Assembly: GCF_013315695.1 (NCBI RefSeq)
Contig: NZ_CP054353.1
Direction: 5' to 3' (one strand)
Length of the DNA stretch: 64,000 nucleotides
DNA from: Escherichia coli
GTDB lineage: Bacteria; Pseudomonadota; Gammaproteobacteria; Enterobacterales; Enterobacteriaceae
The translations under genes and the position numbers were made by a program. Within the stretch, counting starts at the first letter, position 1. Every line of letters starts with the position of its first letter. This document shows positions 4,521-24,904 of this stretch, piece by piece. The notes below the pieces were generated by a model. It had not been told where the DNA came from. It was given only the letters and a program-made list of their open reading frames with translations, and ran no database searches.

Positions 4521-4763
4521 ATGCGCAAAATTACCTCAGTAAGCGTTGGCGAACAATTAGATAGTTTTATTACCCGGATGGTCCAGTCTGGTCGTTATGG
4601 CTCGGCCAGTGAAGTGATGCGTTCAGCGCTTCGTCTATTGGAACAACAAGAATCCCGGGATGAAGCTGTCAGAAATGCAGTTATTGAAGGTCTTGAGAGC
4701 GGTGAAAGTTCGATGACGCTTCGTGATATCGCAGCAGAAAGGAAGCAAAAACATCGTGTATAA
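4521..4763 (+). CDS. type II antitoxin, ParD/ribbon-helix-helix family
   Basis: 80-aa product with RHH-like N-terminus and ...SASEVMRSALRLLEQQE... motif; stop overlaps the downstream toxin start by 8 nt. Confidence 0.8.
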   Translation: MRKITSVSVGEQLDSFITRMVQSGRYGSASEVMRSALRLLEQQESRDEAVRNAVIEGLESGESSMTLRDIAAERKQKHRV

Positions 4764-5037
4764 GCTTAGCGGAAAAGCTGTTGAAGATTTCAGAGGGATC
4801 TATGACTACACGCTGGGAAAGTTTGGTGAGGAGCAGGCGGATCGCTATACCGACTCTCTCGGCATTTTTTTGGATACACTCTCTCAAATGCCCGAGATTG
4901 GTCAAGACTATGATGCGATTCCAGAGGTAAAGAAGATCGCATTTAGGTTTCACACTGTTTATTACGTTATAAGAGTCGATGACATTCTCATTGCGCGCAT
5001 TCTTCATCAGCTGATGGAACCTCGCCGTCACTGGTAA
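4756..5037 (+). CDS. type II toxin, ParE/RelE family
   Basis: 93-aa product (GTG start) with ParE-like features: YKLSGKA...DF..IYDYT N-terminus, YYVIRVDDILIARILH C-terminus; start overlaps the antitoxin stop. Confidence 0.8.
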   Translation: MYKLSGKAVEDFRGIYDYTLGKFGEEQADRYTDSLGIFLDTLSQMPEIGQDYDAIPEVKKIAFRFHTVYYVIRVDDILIARILHQLMEPRRHW

Positions 5038-5509: not shown

Positions 5510-6394
5510 TTAGAAGTTGTAACCTACTACCAGGTAACCACCCCAGCCGGTAGAGCGAACGTTGAAGTTGCCGTTGCCGAAGTTCAGTTCTGCATCGTCG
5601 TTCCACTGACCACCGTCGTGCCAGTAACGAGCTACGACAGAGTAGTGCCAATGATCGTAGTTCAGAGCCAGAATATGGCTGGAAGCGATAGAGTTATTAG
5701 TACGGGTCTTAATACCGTTGATTGCGTTACCGCTGTCATCCCCTAAATCGGAACCCCAGTCGAAGTTGGTGAAGCCGATGTAGCTCAGCTGACCGCCCCA
5801 CAGATCGGTAATCGGCACAAAGTATTTAATTTTGAAACGGTAACCGTCCCACTCGTTTTCGTTCGCTGCGCCATAGTTCTGCCACTGGTATTTCGCATAG
5901 ACGTTCATGGACAGGCTCATCGGCAGGCCAGTATCGATATCGGTACCCAGACCCATGTACCAGGTGCTCTGGCGACCATCTTTATTACGACCCATGTCGT
6001 AAATGTAGTTGTTCGCGAAGTACCACTCTTTGAACGGACCAAAGCTAAGGTCAGTATTGGTCAGCTTGTCGATGGAGAAACGTGGTTCGATTTCCATAAA
6101 CAGCGGAGAACCGTGGTTCCAGATACCTTTTGCATCGGAGTTACCGCCGAAGAATACCGGCGCATCCGCATAACCATAGAAGTCGAACCAGTCTTTTTTA
6201 GCGAATGCTTCGTACTCAAGGTAGGTATCGTTGCGGATCTGCGGTCCGAAACGGGTGTGATAGCTTCCGACAACGTTAACGCTCTGGTGCCACCAGTCGG
6301 AAAGATACTGCGGTTTGTCGTTTTCAGCTGCGTTGACAGTAAAAGACGAAGAGAGCGCCAGTACCGCACCGGCTGCCAGTAATGTTTTTTTCAT
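5510..6394 (-). CDS. tsx: nucleoside-specific outer-membrane channel Tsx
   Basis: 294-aa product starting [24 protein letters not shown]; ORF track extends 16 codons further upstream. Confidence 0.95.
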
Positions 6395-6692
6395 ATGTAT
6401 GCCACTGTTTGAAAATCCCTTGCGGGAGTGAAAAAGGCGCAAATTGCGTTTCTAAATATTTCGTATACAGAGGAGCCTATTATAAAAATCATTGCTCACA
6501 AAAATATGTTTCGTTTCACAGTTCTATCATTTACGTAATCGATTGCGTTCACGTTTACACACATTCGGGCGGGGATTGTACTGACTTTCACCCTTGTTGC
6601 AAACTTTTACTATCAATCCAGGTGATGTAAGCGGAGTAACAAAATGACGGGAAAAGATGTTGCGGGACGCACAAAATCGCCCCGCTATACGT

Positions 6693-7099
6693 TTACTGCA
6701 TAACAGGTTGAATGTCGTGGATACGTACAAAGTCTAACTGTTCTACAGAAATCCCCTTTAACTGTAACGGAATATCAACATCGCTGGGGACGAGGACGCT
6801 GGCAGGGGCATTAATCAATTGATTCTGCAAATTGATTTCCTGAAAGTTGTCTATTGTTCCCTGAATTTGCCCATATTCAACAGTTCCGCTGAATGCGGGC
6901 AAGGGGTCATTCGACTCGCCCTGAATACGTAGCGTCAGGGTGGTGCCATCTGTATCATGCGTAATATTCACTAGCGACATACGTAAAGTACCGATCTGGC
7001 TTTCCAGTCTTGCCGGTGTTTTCGCTCCAGGCAGAAGGTAAACCCCACTGCTGGATTTTGCATTCAGCCTGTTTTGCTGAGTGATTTTGACGGTTTCTT
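6693..7099 (-). pseudogene. yajI: yajI lipoprotein gene, 3' (C-terminal) fragment separated from its 5' part by an IS insertion
   Basis: reading frame open from about 7127 to stop at 6693 (about 135 codons); no start or signal peptide; matching N-terminal piece found at 8851..8979. Confidence 0.75.
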
Positions 7100-7118
7100 T
7101 ATCCGGTGCGCCGTAAAA

Positions 7119-7138
7119 CCCCGTCCTTCAGGGCGGGG
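7119..7138 (+). repeat. left-end subterminal hairpin ccccg-tccttcaggg-cgggg
   Basis: 5-bp stem with 10-nt loop; same orientation and same loop as the right-end hairpin. Confidence 0.7.
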
Positions 7139-7159
7139 ATATAAGGCGCGGTTTTCCAC

Positions 7160-7590
7160 CTGACCAGGTGTTTGCTGTTGTTCAATGTATTGGCGGATGA
7201 CGGATATTGGCGCACCTCCGCAGCTACTGGCAAAATAGCCAGGACTCCACAAAACGCCTTTGTAGTAATACCTGACTGCAATATCTGGTCGATCTCGTCG
7301 CAGTCACCTACCCGATACGCCTTTGAGGCTGTTTACCAGACTGGATATCGCCAGTTTGGGAGGATAGTTAATTAACAAATGGACGTGATCTGGTTCGCCA
7401 TCCATTTCAACCAGTTCAGCTTCAAAATCAGCACATACATTTGAATAGTAAGTGCGTAGTTTTTCTGTCGCGTCATGGTCAAAAATCTGGCGTCGGTATT
7501 TGGGACAAAGACCAGGTGAACATGCATCAGGAAAACACAATGCCTTCCACGCCGGATATCGGTTTCTTTTTTCACAGACCAAAGTATCAT
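7160..7590 (-). pseudogene. tnpA: IS200/IS605 Y1 (HUH) transposase tnpA, inactivated by a frameshift and an in-frame TGA
   Basis: frame A gives ...HVHLVFVP, frame B gives CPKYRRQIF...DHVHLLINYPPK...LKGVSGR then TGA at 7304-7306, then WSPGYFASSCGGAPISVIRQYIEQQ in the same frame. Confidence 0.8.
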
Positions 7591-7597
7591 TTGACCT

Positions 7598-8806
7598 GTG
7601 AAACGATTACAGGCATTTAAATTCCAGTTAAGACCAGGTGGTCAACAGGAGTGTGAAATGAGGCGCTTCGCAGGCGCATGTCGTTTCGTTTTCAATCGTG
7701 CTCTGGCGCTTCAGAATGAGAATCATGAGGCCGGTAATAAATACATCCCTTACGGGAAAATGGCTTCCTGGCTGGTTGAGTGGAAAAACGCCACTGAAAT
7801 GCAATGGCTTAAAGATTCGCCCTCACAGCCATTGCAACAGTCACTGAAAGACCTTGAGCGGGCTTACAAAAACTTCTTCCAGAAGCGGGCTGCTTTTCCC
7901 CGATTCAAAAAGCGGGGACAGAATGATGCATTCCGCTACCCGCAGGGCGTTAAGCTCGATCAGGAAAACAGCCGTATTTTTCTGCCGAAACTTGGCTGGA
8001 TGCGCTACCGGAACAGCCGTCAGGTCACGGGTGTTGTGAAAAATGTCACTGTCAGCCAGTCCTGCGGTAAGTGGTACATCAGTATTCAGACAGAAAGTGA
8101 AGTATCCACTCCGGTTCACCCTTCAGCATCAATGGTCGGGCTGGATGCTGGCGTGGCTAAACTCGCCACGCTGTCAGATGGCACAGTCTTTGAGCCTGTA
8201 AACAGTTTTCAGAAAAACCAGAAGACGCTGGCGAGACTTCAGCGACAGTTAAGCCGCAAGGTCGAATTCAGCAATAACTGGCAGAAGCAGAAACGCAAAA
8301 TACAGCGACTGCATTCCCGTATCGCAAATATCCGCAGGGACTACCTTCACAAAGTCACAACGACCGTCAGCAAAAACCACGCAATGATAGTCATTGAGGA
8401 TTTGAAGGTCAGCAACATGTCAAAGTCAGCAGCGGGTACGGTCAGCCAGCCGGGGCGCAATGTCCGGGCAAAATCAGGTTTAAACCGTTCGATACTGGAT
8501 CAGGGCTGGTATGAAATGCGCCGCCAGCTTGAGTACAAGCAGCTCTGGCGTGGCGGTCAGGTGCTTGCTGTTCCGCCAGCGTACACAAGCCAGCGTTGCG
8601 CGTGCTGTGGTCATACAGCGAAAGAAAATCGCCTGTCACAAAGTAAATTCAGATGCCAGGCATGTGGATATACAGCGAACGCTGATGTAAATGGCGCTCG
8701 TAACATTTTAGCGGCGGGGCACGCCGTTCTTGCCTGTGGAGGGATGGTGCAGTCAGGCCGCCCGTTGAAGCAGGAACCCACCGAAATGATTCAGGCGACA
8801 GCCTGA
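7598..8806 (+). CDS. tnpB: IS605-family TnpB (OrfB), RuvC-like RNA-guided endonuclease family
   Basis: 402-aa ORF, GTG start; N-terminus resembles the ISDra2 TnpB N-terminus as I recall it; RuvC motifs [22 protein letters not shown] and CxxC...CxxC zinc finger all present. Confidence 0.92.
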
Positions 8807-8870
8807 ACGTAGCAGGGATCCACGTCCTTCAGGGCGTGGAGGATGTCAATGAGTTGCGTCATCTCCTGGT
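8650..8870 (+). ncRNA. predicted TnpB guide RNA (omega/right-end RNA) spanning the tnpB 3' end, the right-end hairpin and a flank-derived guide; not directly observed
   Basis: inferred from the known architecture of TnpB elements; right-end hairpin at 8820-8839 and intact tnpB upstream. Confidence 0.35.
8820..8839 (+). repeat. right-end subterminal hairpin ccacg-tccttcaggg-cgtgg
   Basis: 5-bp stem with 10-nt loop, 14 bp downstream of the tnpB stop. Confidence 0.7.
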
Positions 8871-8979
8871 TCAGTGTGCTGACGCTGTGTTTCATCTGCC
8901 GCACTTCGCTTTGCTGCACACAGGCGCTAAGGCTGAACAGGCTTCCCAGCAGGAGCAGTCGAAAAACGTTAGTATTCAT
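8851..8979 (-). pseudogene. yajI: yajI lipoprotein gene, 5' (N-terminal) fragment with signal peptide and lipobox
   Basis: ATG at 8979 then MNTNVFRLLLLGSLFSLSAC (lipobox LSAC); frame runs into the IS right end. Confidence 0.75.
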
Positions 8980-9093
8980 AGGTCGTCCCTTTCTCGTCGC
9001 AATTAGCCTAATGGTAGAGGGTAAAAGCAGTGAAAGCATCGATCCTTTATCTCAAAAGCGTTGCGCCTTTGTTGTATCGTCAGTTCAGGGTAA

Positions 9094-9579
<486 letters not shown>

Positions 9580-9582
9580 GCC

Positions 9583-10686
9583 GTGCAGGACGAGTATTAC
9601 ATGGCGCGGGCGCTAAAGCTGGCGCAACGAGGACGTTTTACCACGCATCCCAACCCGAATGTCGGGTGCGTCATTGTCAAAGATGGCGAAACTGTCGGTG
9701 AAGGTTACCATCAACGAGCGGGTGAACCGCATGCCGAGGTACACGCGTTGCGCATGGCCGGCGAAAAAGCCAAAGGCGCAACGGCGTATGTCACACTCGA
9801 ACCCTGTAGCCATCATGGTCGTACGCCACCGTGTTGTGATGCATTAATTGCTGCGGGCGTGGCGCGCGTGGTTGCTGCAATGCAAGACCCCAATCCGCAG
9901 GTCGCTGGGCGTGGACTTTACCGTCTACAACAGGCTGGTATTGACGTCAGCCACGGGTTGATGATGAGTGAAGCCGAGCAATTGAATAAAGGCTTTCTCA
10001 AGCGGATGCGCACCGGCTTTCCTTATATTCAGTTAAAACTTGGCGCATCGCTTGATGGCCGCACGGCGATGGCGAGCGGCGAAAGCCAGTGGATCACTTC
10101 GCCTCAGGCGCGGCGCGACGTACAACGACTGCGCGCACAAAGTCATGCCATTTTAACCAGCAGCGCCACGGTGCTGGCGGATGATCCAGCCTTAACAGTG
10201 CGTTGGTCTGAACTGGATGAACAAACTCAGGCGCTCTATCCGCAACAAAATCTCCGTCAGCCGATACGTATTGTGATTGATAGCCAAAATCGCGTGACGC
10301 CGGAACATCGCATTGTGCAGCAGCCCGGCGAAACTTGGTTCGCGCGTACTCAGGATGATTCTCGTGAGTGGCCGGAAACGGTGCGTACCTTGCTGATTCC
10401 AGAGCATAAAGGTCATCTGGATCTGGTTGTACTGATGATGCAACTGGGTAAACAGCAAATTAACAGCATCTGGGTGGAAGCGGGGCCAACGCTCGCTGGC
10501 GCATTGCTACAGGCGGGGTTAGTCGATGAGCTGATTGTCTATATCGCACCTAAACTATTAGGCAGCGACGCCCGTGGATTATGCTCGCTGCCAGGGCTTG
10601 AGAAATTAGCCGACGCCCCCCAATTTAAATTCAAAGAGATACGTCATGTAGGCCCGGATGTTTGCCTGCATTTAGTGGGTGCATGA
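9583..10686 (+). CDS. ribD: bifunctional riboflavin biosynthesis deaminase/reductase RibD
   Basis: 367-aa ORF, GTG start, deaminase motif HAEVHAL...[13 protein letters not shown]. Confidence 0.95.
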
Positions 10687-23075: not shown

Positions 23076-24011
23076 ATGTTAACTAAAAGAATATTATTTT
23101 CTTTAATGCTAATAGTTTCACCATGCGTGGTGGCAAGCGAGAAAGCGCATGAATTGTATGACAGCATATACGGTGGTCAACCTGCGCCCGATGTTATAAA
23201 TAGACTGCATAAAATGGCTGAATTGGGAGATGTCGACGCGCAGAGCCTGTTAGGCTGGGAATATTATCAGCCTCGCTTTGATACCAAACCTGATGTTCAG
23301 GAAGCGATTAAATGGTTTGAGTTAGCCGCTAAACACGGTGATAGAGAAGCTCCGTTAGCGCTGGGGAGTATCTACTACGACGGTGAGCTGGTGCGGGTGG
23401 ATTATGCCAAAGCGTATGCACTATTTAATCAGGCCGCGCAATACGGTGTGAATTTAGCATGGTCCAGGTTGGGCATGATGTACGCCAATGGTCAGTATGT
23501 TGAGGTCGATTGTAAGAAAGCGAAGGAATATCTTGATAAAGGTGTCCACATTTATGGTGGTCCGGAAGACTTTCTGGCTACATGTCGAAAAGACATGATT
23601 GACAGAAAAATGGTTGACGATACGTTACCCGTGATCACGGTTACCCGTTCTGGGATGCGGGATAATTTTTTAGATAAAGGTTTTTCCTGCATGGATAGCC
23701 TCTTCGCCACCACCAATAAATTAGGCGAAGTGGCCAATCTTCGCGTGACATTCAGCATTCGTAGCCCATCCGGTAAGGAGATTAACCAAACGGTTGGCTT
23801 CGCGCCTTTCGGTTTAAACCGGCTGAATATTAGCTTTACTGATTACATATTTGATTCATTTACCAGTAATTCGTCTCTAATTCTTTATAAACCGGAATTT
23901 GAGCGAAAATCTTGTGCAACTGTAAGGACCACAATCGTTGCCGCAACGGCAACCATTAACGGCAAGGATGTGGAGTTGCTGAAAGCGGGGGCAATTGAAC
24001 AAAAGTGGTAA
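23076..24011 (+). CDS. secreted Sel1-like repeat (SLR/TPR-like) protein with uncharacterised C-terminal domain; absent from the K-12 arrangement as I recall it
   Basis: ATG at 23076 with AAAGG ribosome-binding site; N-terminal signal peptide (cleavage around VVA-SE); repeats of LG..Y..G.GV..D..KA..WF..AA..G; AT-rich codon usage. Confidence 0.75.
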   Translation: MLTKRILFSLMLIVSPCVVASEKAHELYDSIYGGQPAPDVINRLHKMAELGDVDAQSLLGWEYYQPRFDTKPDVQEAIKWFELAAKHGDREAPLALGSIYYDGELVRVDYAKAYALFNQAAQYGVNLAWSRLGMMYANGQYVEVDCKKAKEYLDKGVHIYGGPEDFLATCRKDMIDRKMVDDTLPVITVTRSGMRDNFLDKGFSCMDSLFATTNKLGEVANLRVTFSIRSPSGKEINQTVGFAPFGLNRLNISFTDYIFDSFTSNSSLILYKPEFERKSCATVRTTIVAATATINGKDVELLKAGAIEQKW

Positions 24012-24066
24012 CGCTGCTCAGTCCCCGGCTGAGGCAAAACTAGCCCTGGCCGGAGGCGATAATAAT

Positions 24067-24609
24067 CTAAGCCGCGAGAATATGCTGAATCGCTAAAAAC
24101 ATCGGTACAGCACCGAAAACATTGGGCCTCGCTGAAAGCTGAACAAAGCCGAGGCGAGTATAAAAGTTAATGGCGGCAGGGTCAGCATCAAGATAAACCC
24201 CTTTAATTGGTAATGCACGGTGAATTATTTTTACATGTTCAAAAAAATCACATAGTAGGTCCTGACCAAAGCCCCGCTTTTGATATTTCCGCGCTACCCC
24301 TAACATGACTAATCTGACAACACCAATCTCTGAAGGTTGTGAACCCTGAAGGACGCCAGAAACGCGTTGTTTTTCCAGCGAATATGCCGTAAAAGTACAG
24401 ATGCCAATCAGTTCACCACTTTGTCTGTCAATAAGAGCTTTAGCAGCACAGTCGCTATTACGCACACTTTTCTTTAGCGATGCGCGTACAAATTTATCGA
24501 TAACAGGGTTACCGCAATCAAACTGTTTTTGCCCAGGATAAGTAATATCAGACTGATAATTACAGGAGAGGACTATGGGCAGAGTAATCTCTTCATGCTT
24601 GTCGACCAT
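24067..24609 (-). CDS. GNAT-family acetyltransferase toxin (TacT/AtaT/ItaT-like) of a type II toxin-antitoxin pair
   Basis: 180-aa ORF with FDCG motif near the N-terminus and acetyl-CoA-binding motif QKRGFGQDLL; start overlaps the stop of the upstream antitoxin gene. Confidence 0.75.
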   Translation of the reverse strand: MVDKHEEITLPIVLSCNYQSDITYPGQKQFDCGNPVIDKFVRASLKKSVRNSDCAAKALIDRQSGELIGICTFTAYSLEKQRVSGVLQGSQPSEIGVVRLVMLGVARKYQKRGFGQDLLCDFFEHVKIIHRALPIKGVYLDADPAAINFYTRLGFVQLSARPNVFGAVPMFLAIQHILAA

Positions 24610-24904
24610 CGCTGTTTTTCCTTTTCATTAACGCCTTGAGGGCGAGCGTCGGTTGAGCAGGTTCAGCGATGAGTTGGTTCATCAGTTCCCAGCTTTGATT
24701 CGAAAGCTCACGGCGACGTTGGTTATCAAGCACACTTTCGGCGCGTTCCATAGCTGCGCTCAAAATAAAAGCGCTTAAATCTACCCCAACGGCTTGCGCA
24801 GCTTCACGAAGTTTGTTTTTGGCGTCGGGACTGGTTTTGAGTTCAACCCGCGCATTTTTCAGCGTTTTATCGATATCGGGTAGAGCGACTGTTTTTCCAG
24901 GCAT
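24593..24904 (-). CDS. DUF1778/ribbon-helix-helix antitoxin (TacA/AtaR-like) partner of the GNAT toxin
   Basis: 103-aa product from ATG at 24904 with AAGAGG ribosome-binding site; RHH-like N-terminus; 17-nt overlap with the toxin gene. Confidence 0.7.
   Translation of the reverse strand: MPGKTVALPDIDKTLKNARVELKTSPDAKNKLREAAQAVGVDLSAFILSAAMERAESVLDNQRRRELSNQSWELMNQLIAEPAQPTLALKALMKRKNSDGRQA

What the first reader, a model, noticed from the sequence alone, without database searches (positions are those of the whole stretch)
6693..8979. Loss of the YajI lipoprotein through insertional splitting
yajI is separated into a 5' fragment encoding only the signal peptide, lipobox and about 25 mature residues, and a promoter-less 3' fragment. 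The strain is very likely YajI-null. The tsx promoter region downstream (6395-6692) appears untouched, so polarity on tsx is not expected.
Basis: partly seen in the sequence, partly recalled or inferred. Interest (0 to 1): 0.3.

Follow-up and report, generated by a model that had tools for sequence, protein, structure and literature searches.

The report
yajI lipoprotein gene split by IS609
The E. coli lipoprotein gene yajI is cleanly cut in two by a 1.7-kb IS609 insertion sequence; this ordinary gene knockout is already annotated in about 6% of complete E. coli genomes and affects a protein of unknown function.

Summary
yajI lies on the minus strand and is split into a 130-nt 5' piece (8979..8850) and a 410-nt 3' piece (7102..6693). 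Joining the two pieces restores an exact 540-nt, 179-aa YajI ORF.

The 1747-bp insert (7103..8849) is IS609, of the IS200/IS605 family:
- Its ends are the same as those of the IS609 annotated in K-12, and it is 98.2% identical to it.
- There is no target duplication.
- TTTAT sits on the left flank and the right end is TCAA.
- Both ends carry subterminal hairpins.
- tnpA is decayed, and tnpB/insQ is intact at 402 aa.

The same insertion is present, and annotated by PGAP as a yajI pseudogene, in 340 of 5426 complete E. coli genomes, including IAI39. yajI is single-copy in essentially all of these genomes, so YajI-null is the likely state. The tsx upstream region has the same length as in K-12 and is intact.

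- The 5' ORF runs 19 codons into the IS before it stops.
- The 3' piece lies downstream of tnpA on the same strand, so it may still be transcribed.
- tnpB points toward nrdR.

One side observation is unexplained. This IS copy differs at 15 positions from the copy in near-clonal relatives, which suggests gene conversion or an assembly chimera.

Verdict: real, ordinary and already known. Interest is low.

The parts
8850..8979 (-). yajI 5' fragment: codons 1-43 plus the first base of codon 44 (signal peptide, lipobox LSAC with Cys20, 24 mature residues)
   Evidence: Alignment to K-12 yajI; tblastn 100% over residues 1-43; Pfam DUF3251 profile positions 1-26
8791..8979 (-). Truncated fusion ORF of 62 codons: 43 YajI codons plus 19 codons read from the IS609 right end ([19 protein letters not shown]), then a stop
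   Evidence: Translation
7103..8849 (+). IS609 (IS200/IS605 family), 1747 bp, oriented with tnpB on the + strand
   Evidence: Same ends as the mobile_genetic_element IS609 annotated in K-12 MG1655, and 98.2% identical to it. The ends are shared by copies at 5 independent loci
7098..7102 (+). TTTAT target motif, the expected TAM, immediately 5' of the IS left end. It belongs to yajI (Lys45 allele), not to the IS
   Evidence: TTTAT precedes the left end at all 5 independent insertion sites. Intact yajI alleles with TTTAT exist and are found in 1889 genomes
7119..7138 (+). Left-end subterminal imperfect palindrome (CCCCGTCC-TTCA-GGGCGGGG)
   Evidence: Pattern search finds only 2 matches in the window, against 0.02 expected; DNA fold -14.1 kcal/mol, z -2.8
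7166..7590 (-). tnpA (Y1/HUH transposase) pseudogene with one frameshift near 7503 and one in-frame stop near 7302
   Evidence: Pfam Y1_Tnp matches on two separate ORF pieces; three-frame translation compared with the intact IS609 TnpA of L016; PGAP annotation in relatives reads 'frameshifted; internal stop'
7598..8806 (+). tnpB/insQ, intact at 402 aa, RNA-guided endonuclease family. D183/E267/D363 and both CxxC pairs are present
   Evidence: Pfam HTH_OrfB_IS605, OrfB_IS605 and Cas12f1-like_TNB; NCBIfam guided_TnpB at 390.9 bits; PDB ISDra2 TnpB at 1e-53; motif positions
8679..8865 (+). Expected omega-RNA (reRNA) region: 3' end of tnpB plus the right end, followed by about 16 nt of yajI flank (TGAGTTGCGTCATCTC) as the guide. 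This is inferred, not shown
   Evidence: Only sub-threshold Rfam hits, all at this spot: HgcC 8739..8862, RAGATH-18 8733..8776, sot0042 8679..8840. RNA fold of 8640..8865 has z -2.85
8820..8839 (+). Right-end subterminal palindrome (CCACGTCC-TTCA-GGGCGTGG). The IS ends in TCAA at 8846..8849
6693..7102 (-). yajI 3' fragment: the last two bases of codon 44, codons 45-179 and the stop. Covers the rest of the coiled coil and the whole C-terminal beta-sandwich domain
   Evidence: tblastn 94% over residues 44-179; Pfam DUF3251 profile positions 27-157, E 9e-71
6662..6685 (-). Terminator-like hairpin just after the yajI stop
6395..6692 (-). tsx upstream region, intact: 298 bp with 6 substitutions against K-12
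   Evidence: identical to relative AF3

Best explanation
An IS609 element (IS200/IS605 family, which moves as single-stranded DNA by a 'peel-and-paste' mechanism) inserted once, precisely and without target duplication. It landed 3' of a TTTAT pentanucleotide inside codon 44 of a Lys45 allele of yajI.

The insertion separates the yajI promoter, signal peptide and lipobox from the rest of the coiled coil and the whole C-terminal domain, so no functional YajI lipoprotein can be made. At most, two products are possible:
- a 43-residue mature lipopeptide (24 YajI residues plus 19 IS-encoded residues)
- a cytoplasmic C-terminal fragment, which is unlikely

The element is non-autonomous because its tnpA carries a frameshift and a stop, but it keeps an intact tnpB. 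The disrupted allele is an inherited lineage marker shared by about 6% of sequenced E. coli. tsx keeps its own upstream region and is not expected to be affected.

Shown: the anatomy, the identity of the IS, the precision of the insertion, and its distribution. Inferred: the absence of YajI protein, a single origin, and no effect on neighbouring genes.
For: - Exact junctions, and a perfect 540-nt ORF when the insert is removed.
- The insert has the same ends as the IS609 annotated in K-12 and is 98.2% identical to it.
- IS200/IS605 hallmarks are present: Y1_Tnp and OrfB_IS605 domains, subterminal hairpins, TTTAT left of the element at 5 independent loci, a TCAA right end and no target duplication.
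- 340 of 5426 complete genomes carry the same insertion. This equals the number of genomes lacking an uninterrupted junction, 5424 - 5084.
- PGAP annotates both yajI halves as pseudogene pieces, for example in IAI39, 2016C-3878, AF3 and MS 21-1.
- The yajI::IS609 copy is nearly uniform across divergent backgrounds: 3 differences between AF3 and IAI39.
- 1889 genomes keep an empty TTTAT site although 4858 carry IS609, so the site is not a frequently hit hot spot.
- IS609 never transposed in E. coli mutation-accumulation lines (PMC5009759).
- yajI is single-copy.
Against: - No expression data are available.
- The rest of this genome is unseen.
- One yajI::IS609 (strain 2012C-4221, L005) has a rather different IS variant, 22 differences from the AF3 copy, and K-12-like flank SNPs. 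A second independent insertion, or later gene conversion, cannot be excluded.
- The window's own copy differs at 15 positions from the copy in clonal relatives.
Confidence: 0.93

Rival explanations
1. YajI function persists despite the split. This could happen through a second intact copy elsewhere in the genome, or because the 5' lipopeptide and a separately translated C-terminal fragment still work.
For: - The yajI promoter, signal peptide and lipobox are intact, and the truncated ORF is open for 62 codons.
- The 3' fragment lies downstream of tnpA on the same strand and has an in-frame ATG at 6980.
- 4 of 5424 genomes have two places matching the 3' part.
Against: - The C-terminal fragment would lack a signal peptide and lipid anchor.
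- No Shine-Dalgarno-like sequence precedes the ATG at 6980.
- The predicted coiled coil is cut at residue 44. In the paralogue SadB the coiled coil holds the trimer together (PMC3953254).
- yajI is single-copy in more than 99.9% of genomes, and in every insertion-bearing genome listed.
- tblastn finds nothing else in the window.
Confidence: 0.04
2. The locus is more than a dead insertion: it is an actively self-maintaining one. The intact TnpB, with an omega-RNA whose guide is the adjacent yajI sequence, would cut any restored or incoming intact TTTAT-type yajI allele and force the IS to be re-copied (homing). This would explain how a tnpA-dead element persists and appears in divergent backgrounds.
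For: - tnpB is intact, with its catalytic D-E-D residues and zinc-finger cysteines.
- The TAM-like TTTAT and the flank TGAGTTGCGTCATCTC are exactly what an empty site would present.
- The mechanism has been demonstrated for related elements (Meers et al., bioRxiv 10.1101/2023.03.14.532601).
- Sub-threshold HgcC, RAGATH-18 and sot0042 hits fall at the expected omega-RNA position. RAGATH-18-derived RNAs guide IS607 TnpBs (PMC11061315).
- The IS is nearly identical in backgrounds whose flanks differ by about 1%.
Against: - IS609 TnpB activity and its TAM were not tested here.
- The Rfam hits are below gathering scores.
- Ordinary vertical descent plus homologous recombination explains the distribution equally well.
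- 1889 genomes keep the empty TTTAT allele although most carry IS609. This is expected, since their omega-RNAs have other guides.
- With tnpA dead there is no excision to counteract.
Confidence: 0.15
3. The split is an assembly artefact, with an IS placed wrongly in a repeat-collapsed assembly.
For: The IS sequence in the window looks like a mosaic of several IS609 alleles. Consensus polishing of a multi-copy repeat can produce such a mosaic.
Against: The identical junctions occur in 340 independently finished genomes. These include five with flanks essentially identical to the window. Only the interior of the IS is unusual, not its position.
Confidence: 0.01

Closest known systems
IS609 of E. 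coli K-12 MG1655 (ydcL-ydcO locus; yncK tnpA pseudogene plus insQ)
   Same: Same termini (CCGGTGCGCC...GGATGTCAA), the same TTTAT on the left flank, 98.2% nucleotide identity, a decayed tnpA and an intact 402-aa TnpB/InsQ.
   Different: Different chromosomal site, yajI rather than ydcL/ydcO. It is 1747 bp against 1748 bp, with 30 substitutions and 11 amino-acid differences in InsQ.
yajI::IS609 pseudogene annotated in RefSeq genomes (IAI39 NC_011750.1, 2016C-3878, AF3, MS 21-1 and others; 340 of 5426 genomes)
   Same: Identical insertion point and orientation, and the same split into a 130-nt and a 410-nt piece. Flanks are identical to AF3.
   Different: The window's IS interior differs at 15-19 positions from these otherwise uniform copies, giving 7 amino-acid changes in TnpB.
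IS608 / ISDra2 (the mechanistic reference elements of the IS200/IS605 family)
   Same: A Y1 transposase plus TnpB, subterminal hairpins, no target duplication, and insertion 3' of a short AT-rich motif. IS608 uses TTAC with a TCAA right end and ISDra2 uses TTGAT (my own knowledge). Here the motif is TTTAT and the right end is TCAA. ISDra2 TnpB is a clear homologue.
   Different: tnpA and tnpB are divergent here, and tnpA is dead. No transposition or nuclease activity was tested.
SadB (Salmonella), the characterised paralogue of YajI
   Same: [quoted passage not shown]
   Different: Only 14% identical. SadB works with the SadA autotransporter, whereas YajI is not linked to any autotransporter and has no known function.

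Membership tests
SadB/YajI lipoprotein family (Pfam DUF3251, NCBIfam PRK11530) | Sequence match to the family models over the full length | tested here: met
   The fragments match DUF3251 profile positions 1-26 and 27-157. The rejoined protein matches PRK11530 over residues 1-179 at 308 bits against a cut-off of 158, and PDB 2JWY 'lipoprotein yajI' at E 3e-94.
SadB/YajI lipoprotein family (Pfam DUF3251, NCBIfam PRK11530) | Lipoprotein signal peptide with a lipobox cysteine | tested here: met
   MNTNVFRLLLLGSLFSLSA-C20 contains the lipobox LSAC, and the DUF3251 profile starts at Cys20. No dedicated signal-peptide predictor was available.
SadB/YajI lipoprotein family (Pfam DUF3251, NCBIfam PRK11530) | Conserved position between tsx/yajC-secDF and nrdR-ribD | tested here: met
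   PMC3953254.
IS200/IS605 family, element IS609 | Y1 (HUH) transposase gene tnpA | tested here: met
   Pfam Y1_Tnp on two pieces (E 2e-21 and 3e-6). The gene is inactivated by a frameshift and a stop.
IS200/IS605 family, element IS609 | tnpB (OrfB_IS605) accessory gene | tested here: met
IS200/IS605 family, element IS609 | No terminal inverted repeats; subterminal imperfect palindromes at both ends | tested here: met
   Hairpins at 7119..7138 and 8820..8839 on the same strand.
IS200/IS605 family, element IS609 | No target-site duplication; insertion 3' of a fixed short motif | tested here: met
   Removing 7103..8849 restores the exact ORF. TTTAT precedes the left end at 5 independent loci.
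IS200/IS605 family, element IS609 | Identity to the named reference element | tested here: met
   98.2% identical over 1748 bp to the IS609 feature of NC_000913.3, with the same ends. ISfinder itself was not available.
TnpB RNA-guided endonuclease | RuvC D-E-D residues and zinc-finger cysteines | tested here: met
   D183, E267, D363; C334/C337 and C353/C356.
TnpB RNA-guided endonuclease | Omega-RNA encoded at the 3' end of tnpB and the right end | tested here: inconclusive
   Only sub-threshold Rfam hits at the expected place, and a fold z-score of -2.85.
TnpB RNA-guided endonuclease | TAM-dependent, guide-dependent DNA cleavage | not testable with these tools
   Needs an interference or cleavage assay.

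The most novel reading that the evidence does not exclude
The yajI::IS609 copy is tnpA-dead but keeps an intact TnpB and an omega-RNA whose guide is the neighbouring yajI sequence. It would then act as a self-maintaining allele that cuts intact TTTAT-type (Lys45) yajI alleles arriving by recombination, and those alleles are present in at least 1889 sequenced E. coli. The 15-position mosaic of this copy would record DSB-stimulated or ordinary gene conversion between IS609 copies.
Probability: 0.12. Interest if true: 0.4.

Novelty: already known. Interest (0 to 1): 0.1.

Why it matters
It matters little. The insertion is a lineage marker and a natural yajI knockout. Such strains could serve as ready-made nulls for a conserved envelope lipoprotein whose function is still unknown: yajI is induced 11- to 16-fold on LolCDE inhibition (PMC5105897), and no functional data were available as of PMC3953254. 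The locus is also a convenient natural substrate for testing whether E. coli IS609 TnpB is an active homing nuclease, because the empty target allele is common in the species.

Tried and rejected
1. The idea that the TTTAT on the left flank was brought in by the IS, because K-12 has TTGAT there. Rejected: intact yajI alleles with TTTAT (Lys45) exist and occur in 1889 genomes, against 2030 with TTGAT.

2. The idea that the site is a recurrent hot spot. Not supported: 1889 empty TTTAT sites stand against 340 occupied ones, although 4858 genomes carry IS609.

3. Rfam with permissive E-value filters (max E-value 1) over 6000..9600. No hit reaches its family's gathering score, and there are only weak HgcC, RAGATH-18 and sot0042 hits.

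4. A search for a donor identical to the window's IS copy. None was found among 5426 genomes (best 99.1%) or in PLSDB plasmids (best 98.6%). The pair 8661C/8683T does exist in other IS609 copies, but the O157:H7 copy carrying them is 33 differences away overall.

5. A literature search for yajI pseudogenes found nothing specific.

6. The first Pfam call failed because of a frame error in my coordinates. It was repeated correctly.
Full report
**What is there.** The window is E. coli chromosome with the order secF, parDE, yajD, tsx (5510..6394, minus strand), yajI region, nrdR (9130..9579, plus strand), ribD. Against K-12 MG1655, window 6301..7099 and 8850..9227 align to contiguous K-12 sequence, and 1.7 kb lies between them.

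Base-by-base inspection fixes the junctions. The left flank ends ...GGTTTCTTTAT at 7102. The insert runs from 7103 (CCGGTGCGCC...) to 8849 (...GGATGTCAA). The right flank resumes with TGAGTTGCGTC at 8850.

On the minus strand, 8979..8850 (130 nt) plus 7102..6693 (410 nt) make an exact 540-nt ORF. Its 179-aa product differs at 4 to 9 residues from intact YajI alleles. The two pieces hit Pfam DUF3251 at profile positions 1-26 and 27-157, so nothing is missing or duplicated. The rejoined protein is a full-length match to NCBIfam PRK11530 and to PDB 2JWY, 'lipoprotein yajI'.

The observation and its coordinates (6693 = stop, 8979 = start) are therefore correct.

**The insert.** The insert is IS609.
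- K-12 carries an annotated 'insertion sequence:IS609' between ydcL and ydcO with exactly the same first and last bases. It is 98.2% identical over 1748 bp.
- The insert encodes, on the minus strand, a Y1 transposase gene broken by a frameshift near 7503 and an in-frame stop near 7302. This follows from Pfam Y1_Tnp matches on two pieces and from comparison with the intact 143-aa IS609 TnpA of an O157:H7 copy.
- On the plus strand it encodes an intact 402-aa TnpB/InsQ at 7598..8806. The RuvC residues D183, E267 and D363 and both CxxC pairs are present.
- Both ends carry the same-strand imperfect palindrome CC(C/A)CGTCC-TTCA-GGGCG(G/T)GG. There are 2 matches in the window against 0.02 expected.
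- Copies at five independent loci (yajI, ydcO, a TetR gene near ytfB, yfeD, ygjK) all have TTTAT immediately left of the element and TCAA as its last four bases, with unrelated sequence beyond.

Together with the absence of any target duplication, these are the defining features of IS200/IS605 elements.

**The target.** K-12 has TTGAT (Gln45) where the window has TTTAT (Lys45). This is natural polymorphism and not something brought in by the IS. Intact yajI alleles with TTTAT followed directly by TGAGTTGCG exist. The empty TTTAT site is found in 1889 genomes and the TTGAT form in 2030.

**Distribution.** The same insertion covers at least 80% of a 2.5-kb query in 340 of 5426 complete E. coli genomes. 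Independently, 5424 - 5084 = 340 genomes lack an uninterrupted junction. PGAP annotates the two halves as incomplete DUF3251 or SadB/YajI pseudogenes flanking 'IS200/IS605 family transposase (frameshifted; internal stop)' and 'RNA-guided endonuclease InsQ/TnpB', for example in IAI39, 2016C-3878, AF3, AF14 and MS 21-1. The finding is therefore already recorded in public annotation.

IS609 itself is present in 4858 genomes. It did not transpose at all in E. coli mutation-accumulation lines (PMC5009759). With 1889 empty TTTAT sites still unoccupied, the yajI insertion looks like a rare event that was then inherited or moved by homologous recombination, rather than a hot spot.

One carrier, 2012C-4221, has a noticeably different IS variant and K-12-like flank SNPs. 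A second event or later conversion cannot be excluded.

**Consequences.**
- *5' piece.* It keeps its promoter region, signal peptide, lipobox LSAC (Cys20) and 24 mature residues. It then reads 19 codons of the IS right end to a stop at 8791..8793. At most a 43-residue lipopeptide could result.
- *3' piece.* It encodes residues 45-179, the rest of the predicted coiled coil and the whole beta-sandwich domain (structure context from PMC3953254). It has no signal peptide. Its first in-frame start is the ATG at 6980 (Met85), which has no evident ribosome-binding site. It is not necessarily untranscribed, because tnpA lies directly upstream on the same strand.
- *Copy number.* No other yajI-like sequence is in the window. 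The 3' part occurs 5428 times in 5424 genomes, and once in each listed carrier.

YajI-null is therefore the well-supported inference, limited only by not seeing the rest of this genome.

**Neighbouring genes.**
- *tsx side.* The tsx-yajI spacer is 298 bp as in K-12, with 6 substitutions. Two of these (6652, 6686) recur in both aligned intact-yajI strains and a third (6685) in one. The spacer is identical to that of relative AF3. A terminator-like hairpin follows the yajI stop. The SadB paper also judged tsx and yajI not to be an operon.
Only a weak terminator-like site (8872..8887) lies in between. This is untested.

**Mechanistic extras (inferred).** In this family the omega-RNA spans the 3' end of tnpB and the right end, and takes its guide from the adjacent flank. 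TnpA and TnpB use the same motif as target and TAM (Meers et al.). Here that would give TAM TTTAT and guide TGAGTTGCGTCATCTC, which is the intact Lys45 yajI allele.

Only sub-threshold Rfam hits (HgcC, RAGATH-18, sot0042) mark the expected region 8679..8862. The region folds somewhat better than shuffles, with z -2.85. Because the ends and cleavage motifs are intact, an IS609 TnpA supplied in trans could in principle excise the element precisely and restore yajI.

**Unexplained side observation.** Outside the IS the window is essentially identical to AF3, MSB1_4I, MS 21-1 and AF14. There are 0 differences in 5.7 kb of flank against AF3 and 14 in about 32 kb against AF14. Inside the IS it differs from them at 15-19 positions.
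- Those genomes, and the distant IAI39 and 2016C-3878, share one uniform yajI::IS609 sequence.
- Twelve of the 15 window bases are the majority base of IS609 copies at other loci.
- 8661C/8683T occur together in copies of 657 records.
- 7800T was seen in none of the 10 copies compared.
- No copy anywhere is more than 99.1% identical over the whole element.

Patchy gene conversion from another IS609 copy, or a polishing chimera in the assembly, would both explain this. Neither affects the yajI conclusion.

**Verdict.** This is a real, precisely defined and ordinary IS609 knockout of a conserved lipoprotein of unknown function. It is already annotated in hundreds of genomes.

Noticed in passing
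window 7103..8849 (positions 7319, 7413, 7446, 7607, 7636, 7652, 7653, 7797, 7800, 8455, 8492, 8600, 8645, 8661, 8683): The IS609 copy differs at 15 positions from the otherwise uniform yajI::IS609 of near-clonal relatives, whose flanks are identical. Most of the variant bases match IS609 copies at other loci. This points to gene conversion between IS copies or to an assembly or polishing chimera. It changes 7 residues of TnpB, none of them catalytic.
   Followed up: partly
window ~4521..5037 (+): A ParD/ParE-type toxin-antitoxin pair lies between secF and yajD. K-12 has only a 128-nt spacer at this position.
   Followed up: no
window ~23076..24904: By ungapped correspondence with AF14 (L015), a small accessory islet lies between yajR and cyoE. 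It holds a TPR protein, a GNAT-family acetyltransferase toxin and a TacA-family antitoxin.
   Followed up: no
L016 1030..1461 (E. coli O157:H7 PV15-279, yjfZ/ytfB locus): This IS609 copy has an intact 143-aa tnpA (WP_000604943.1). Functional IS609 transposase therefore exists in the species and could mobilise tnpA-dead copies in trans.
   Followed up: partly
window 8806..9130 (+): tnpB reads toward nrdR-ribD-ribH-nusB, with only a weak terminator-like site (8872..8887) in between. Read-through into the nrdR operon is a more plausible neighbour effect than polarity on tsx.
   Followed up: no
window 7098..7102 and codon 45 of yajI: The Gln45/Lys45 polymorphism of YajI (TTGAT against TTTAT) decides whether the allele carries the IS609 target motif. 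An exact 35-nt probe finds 2030 genomes with TTGAT and 1889 with TTTAT.
   Followed up: yes
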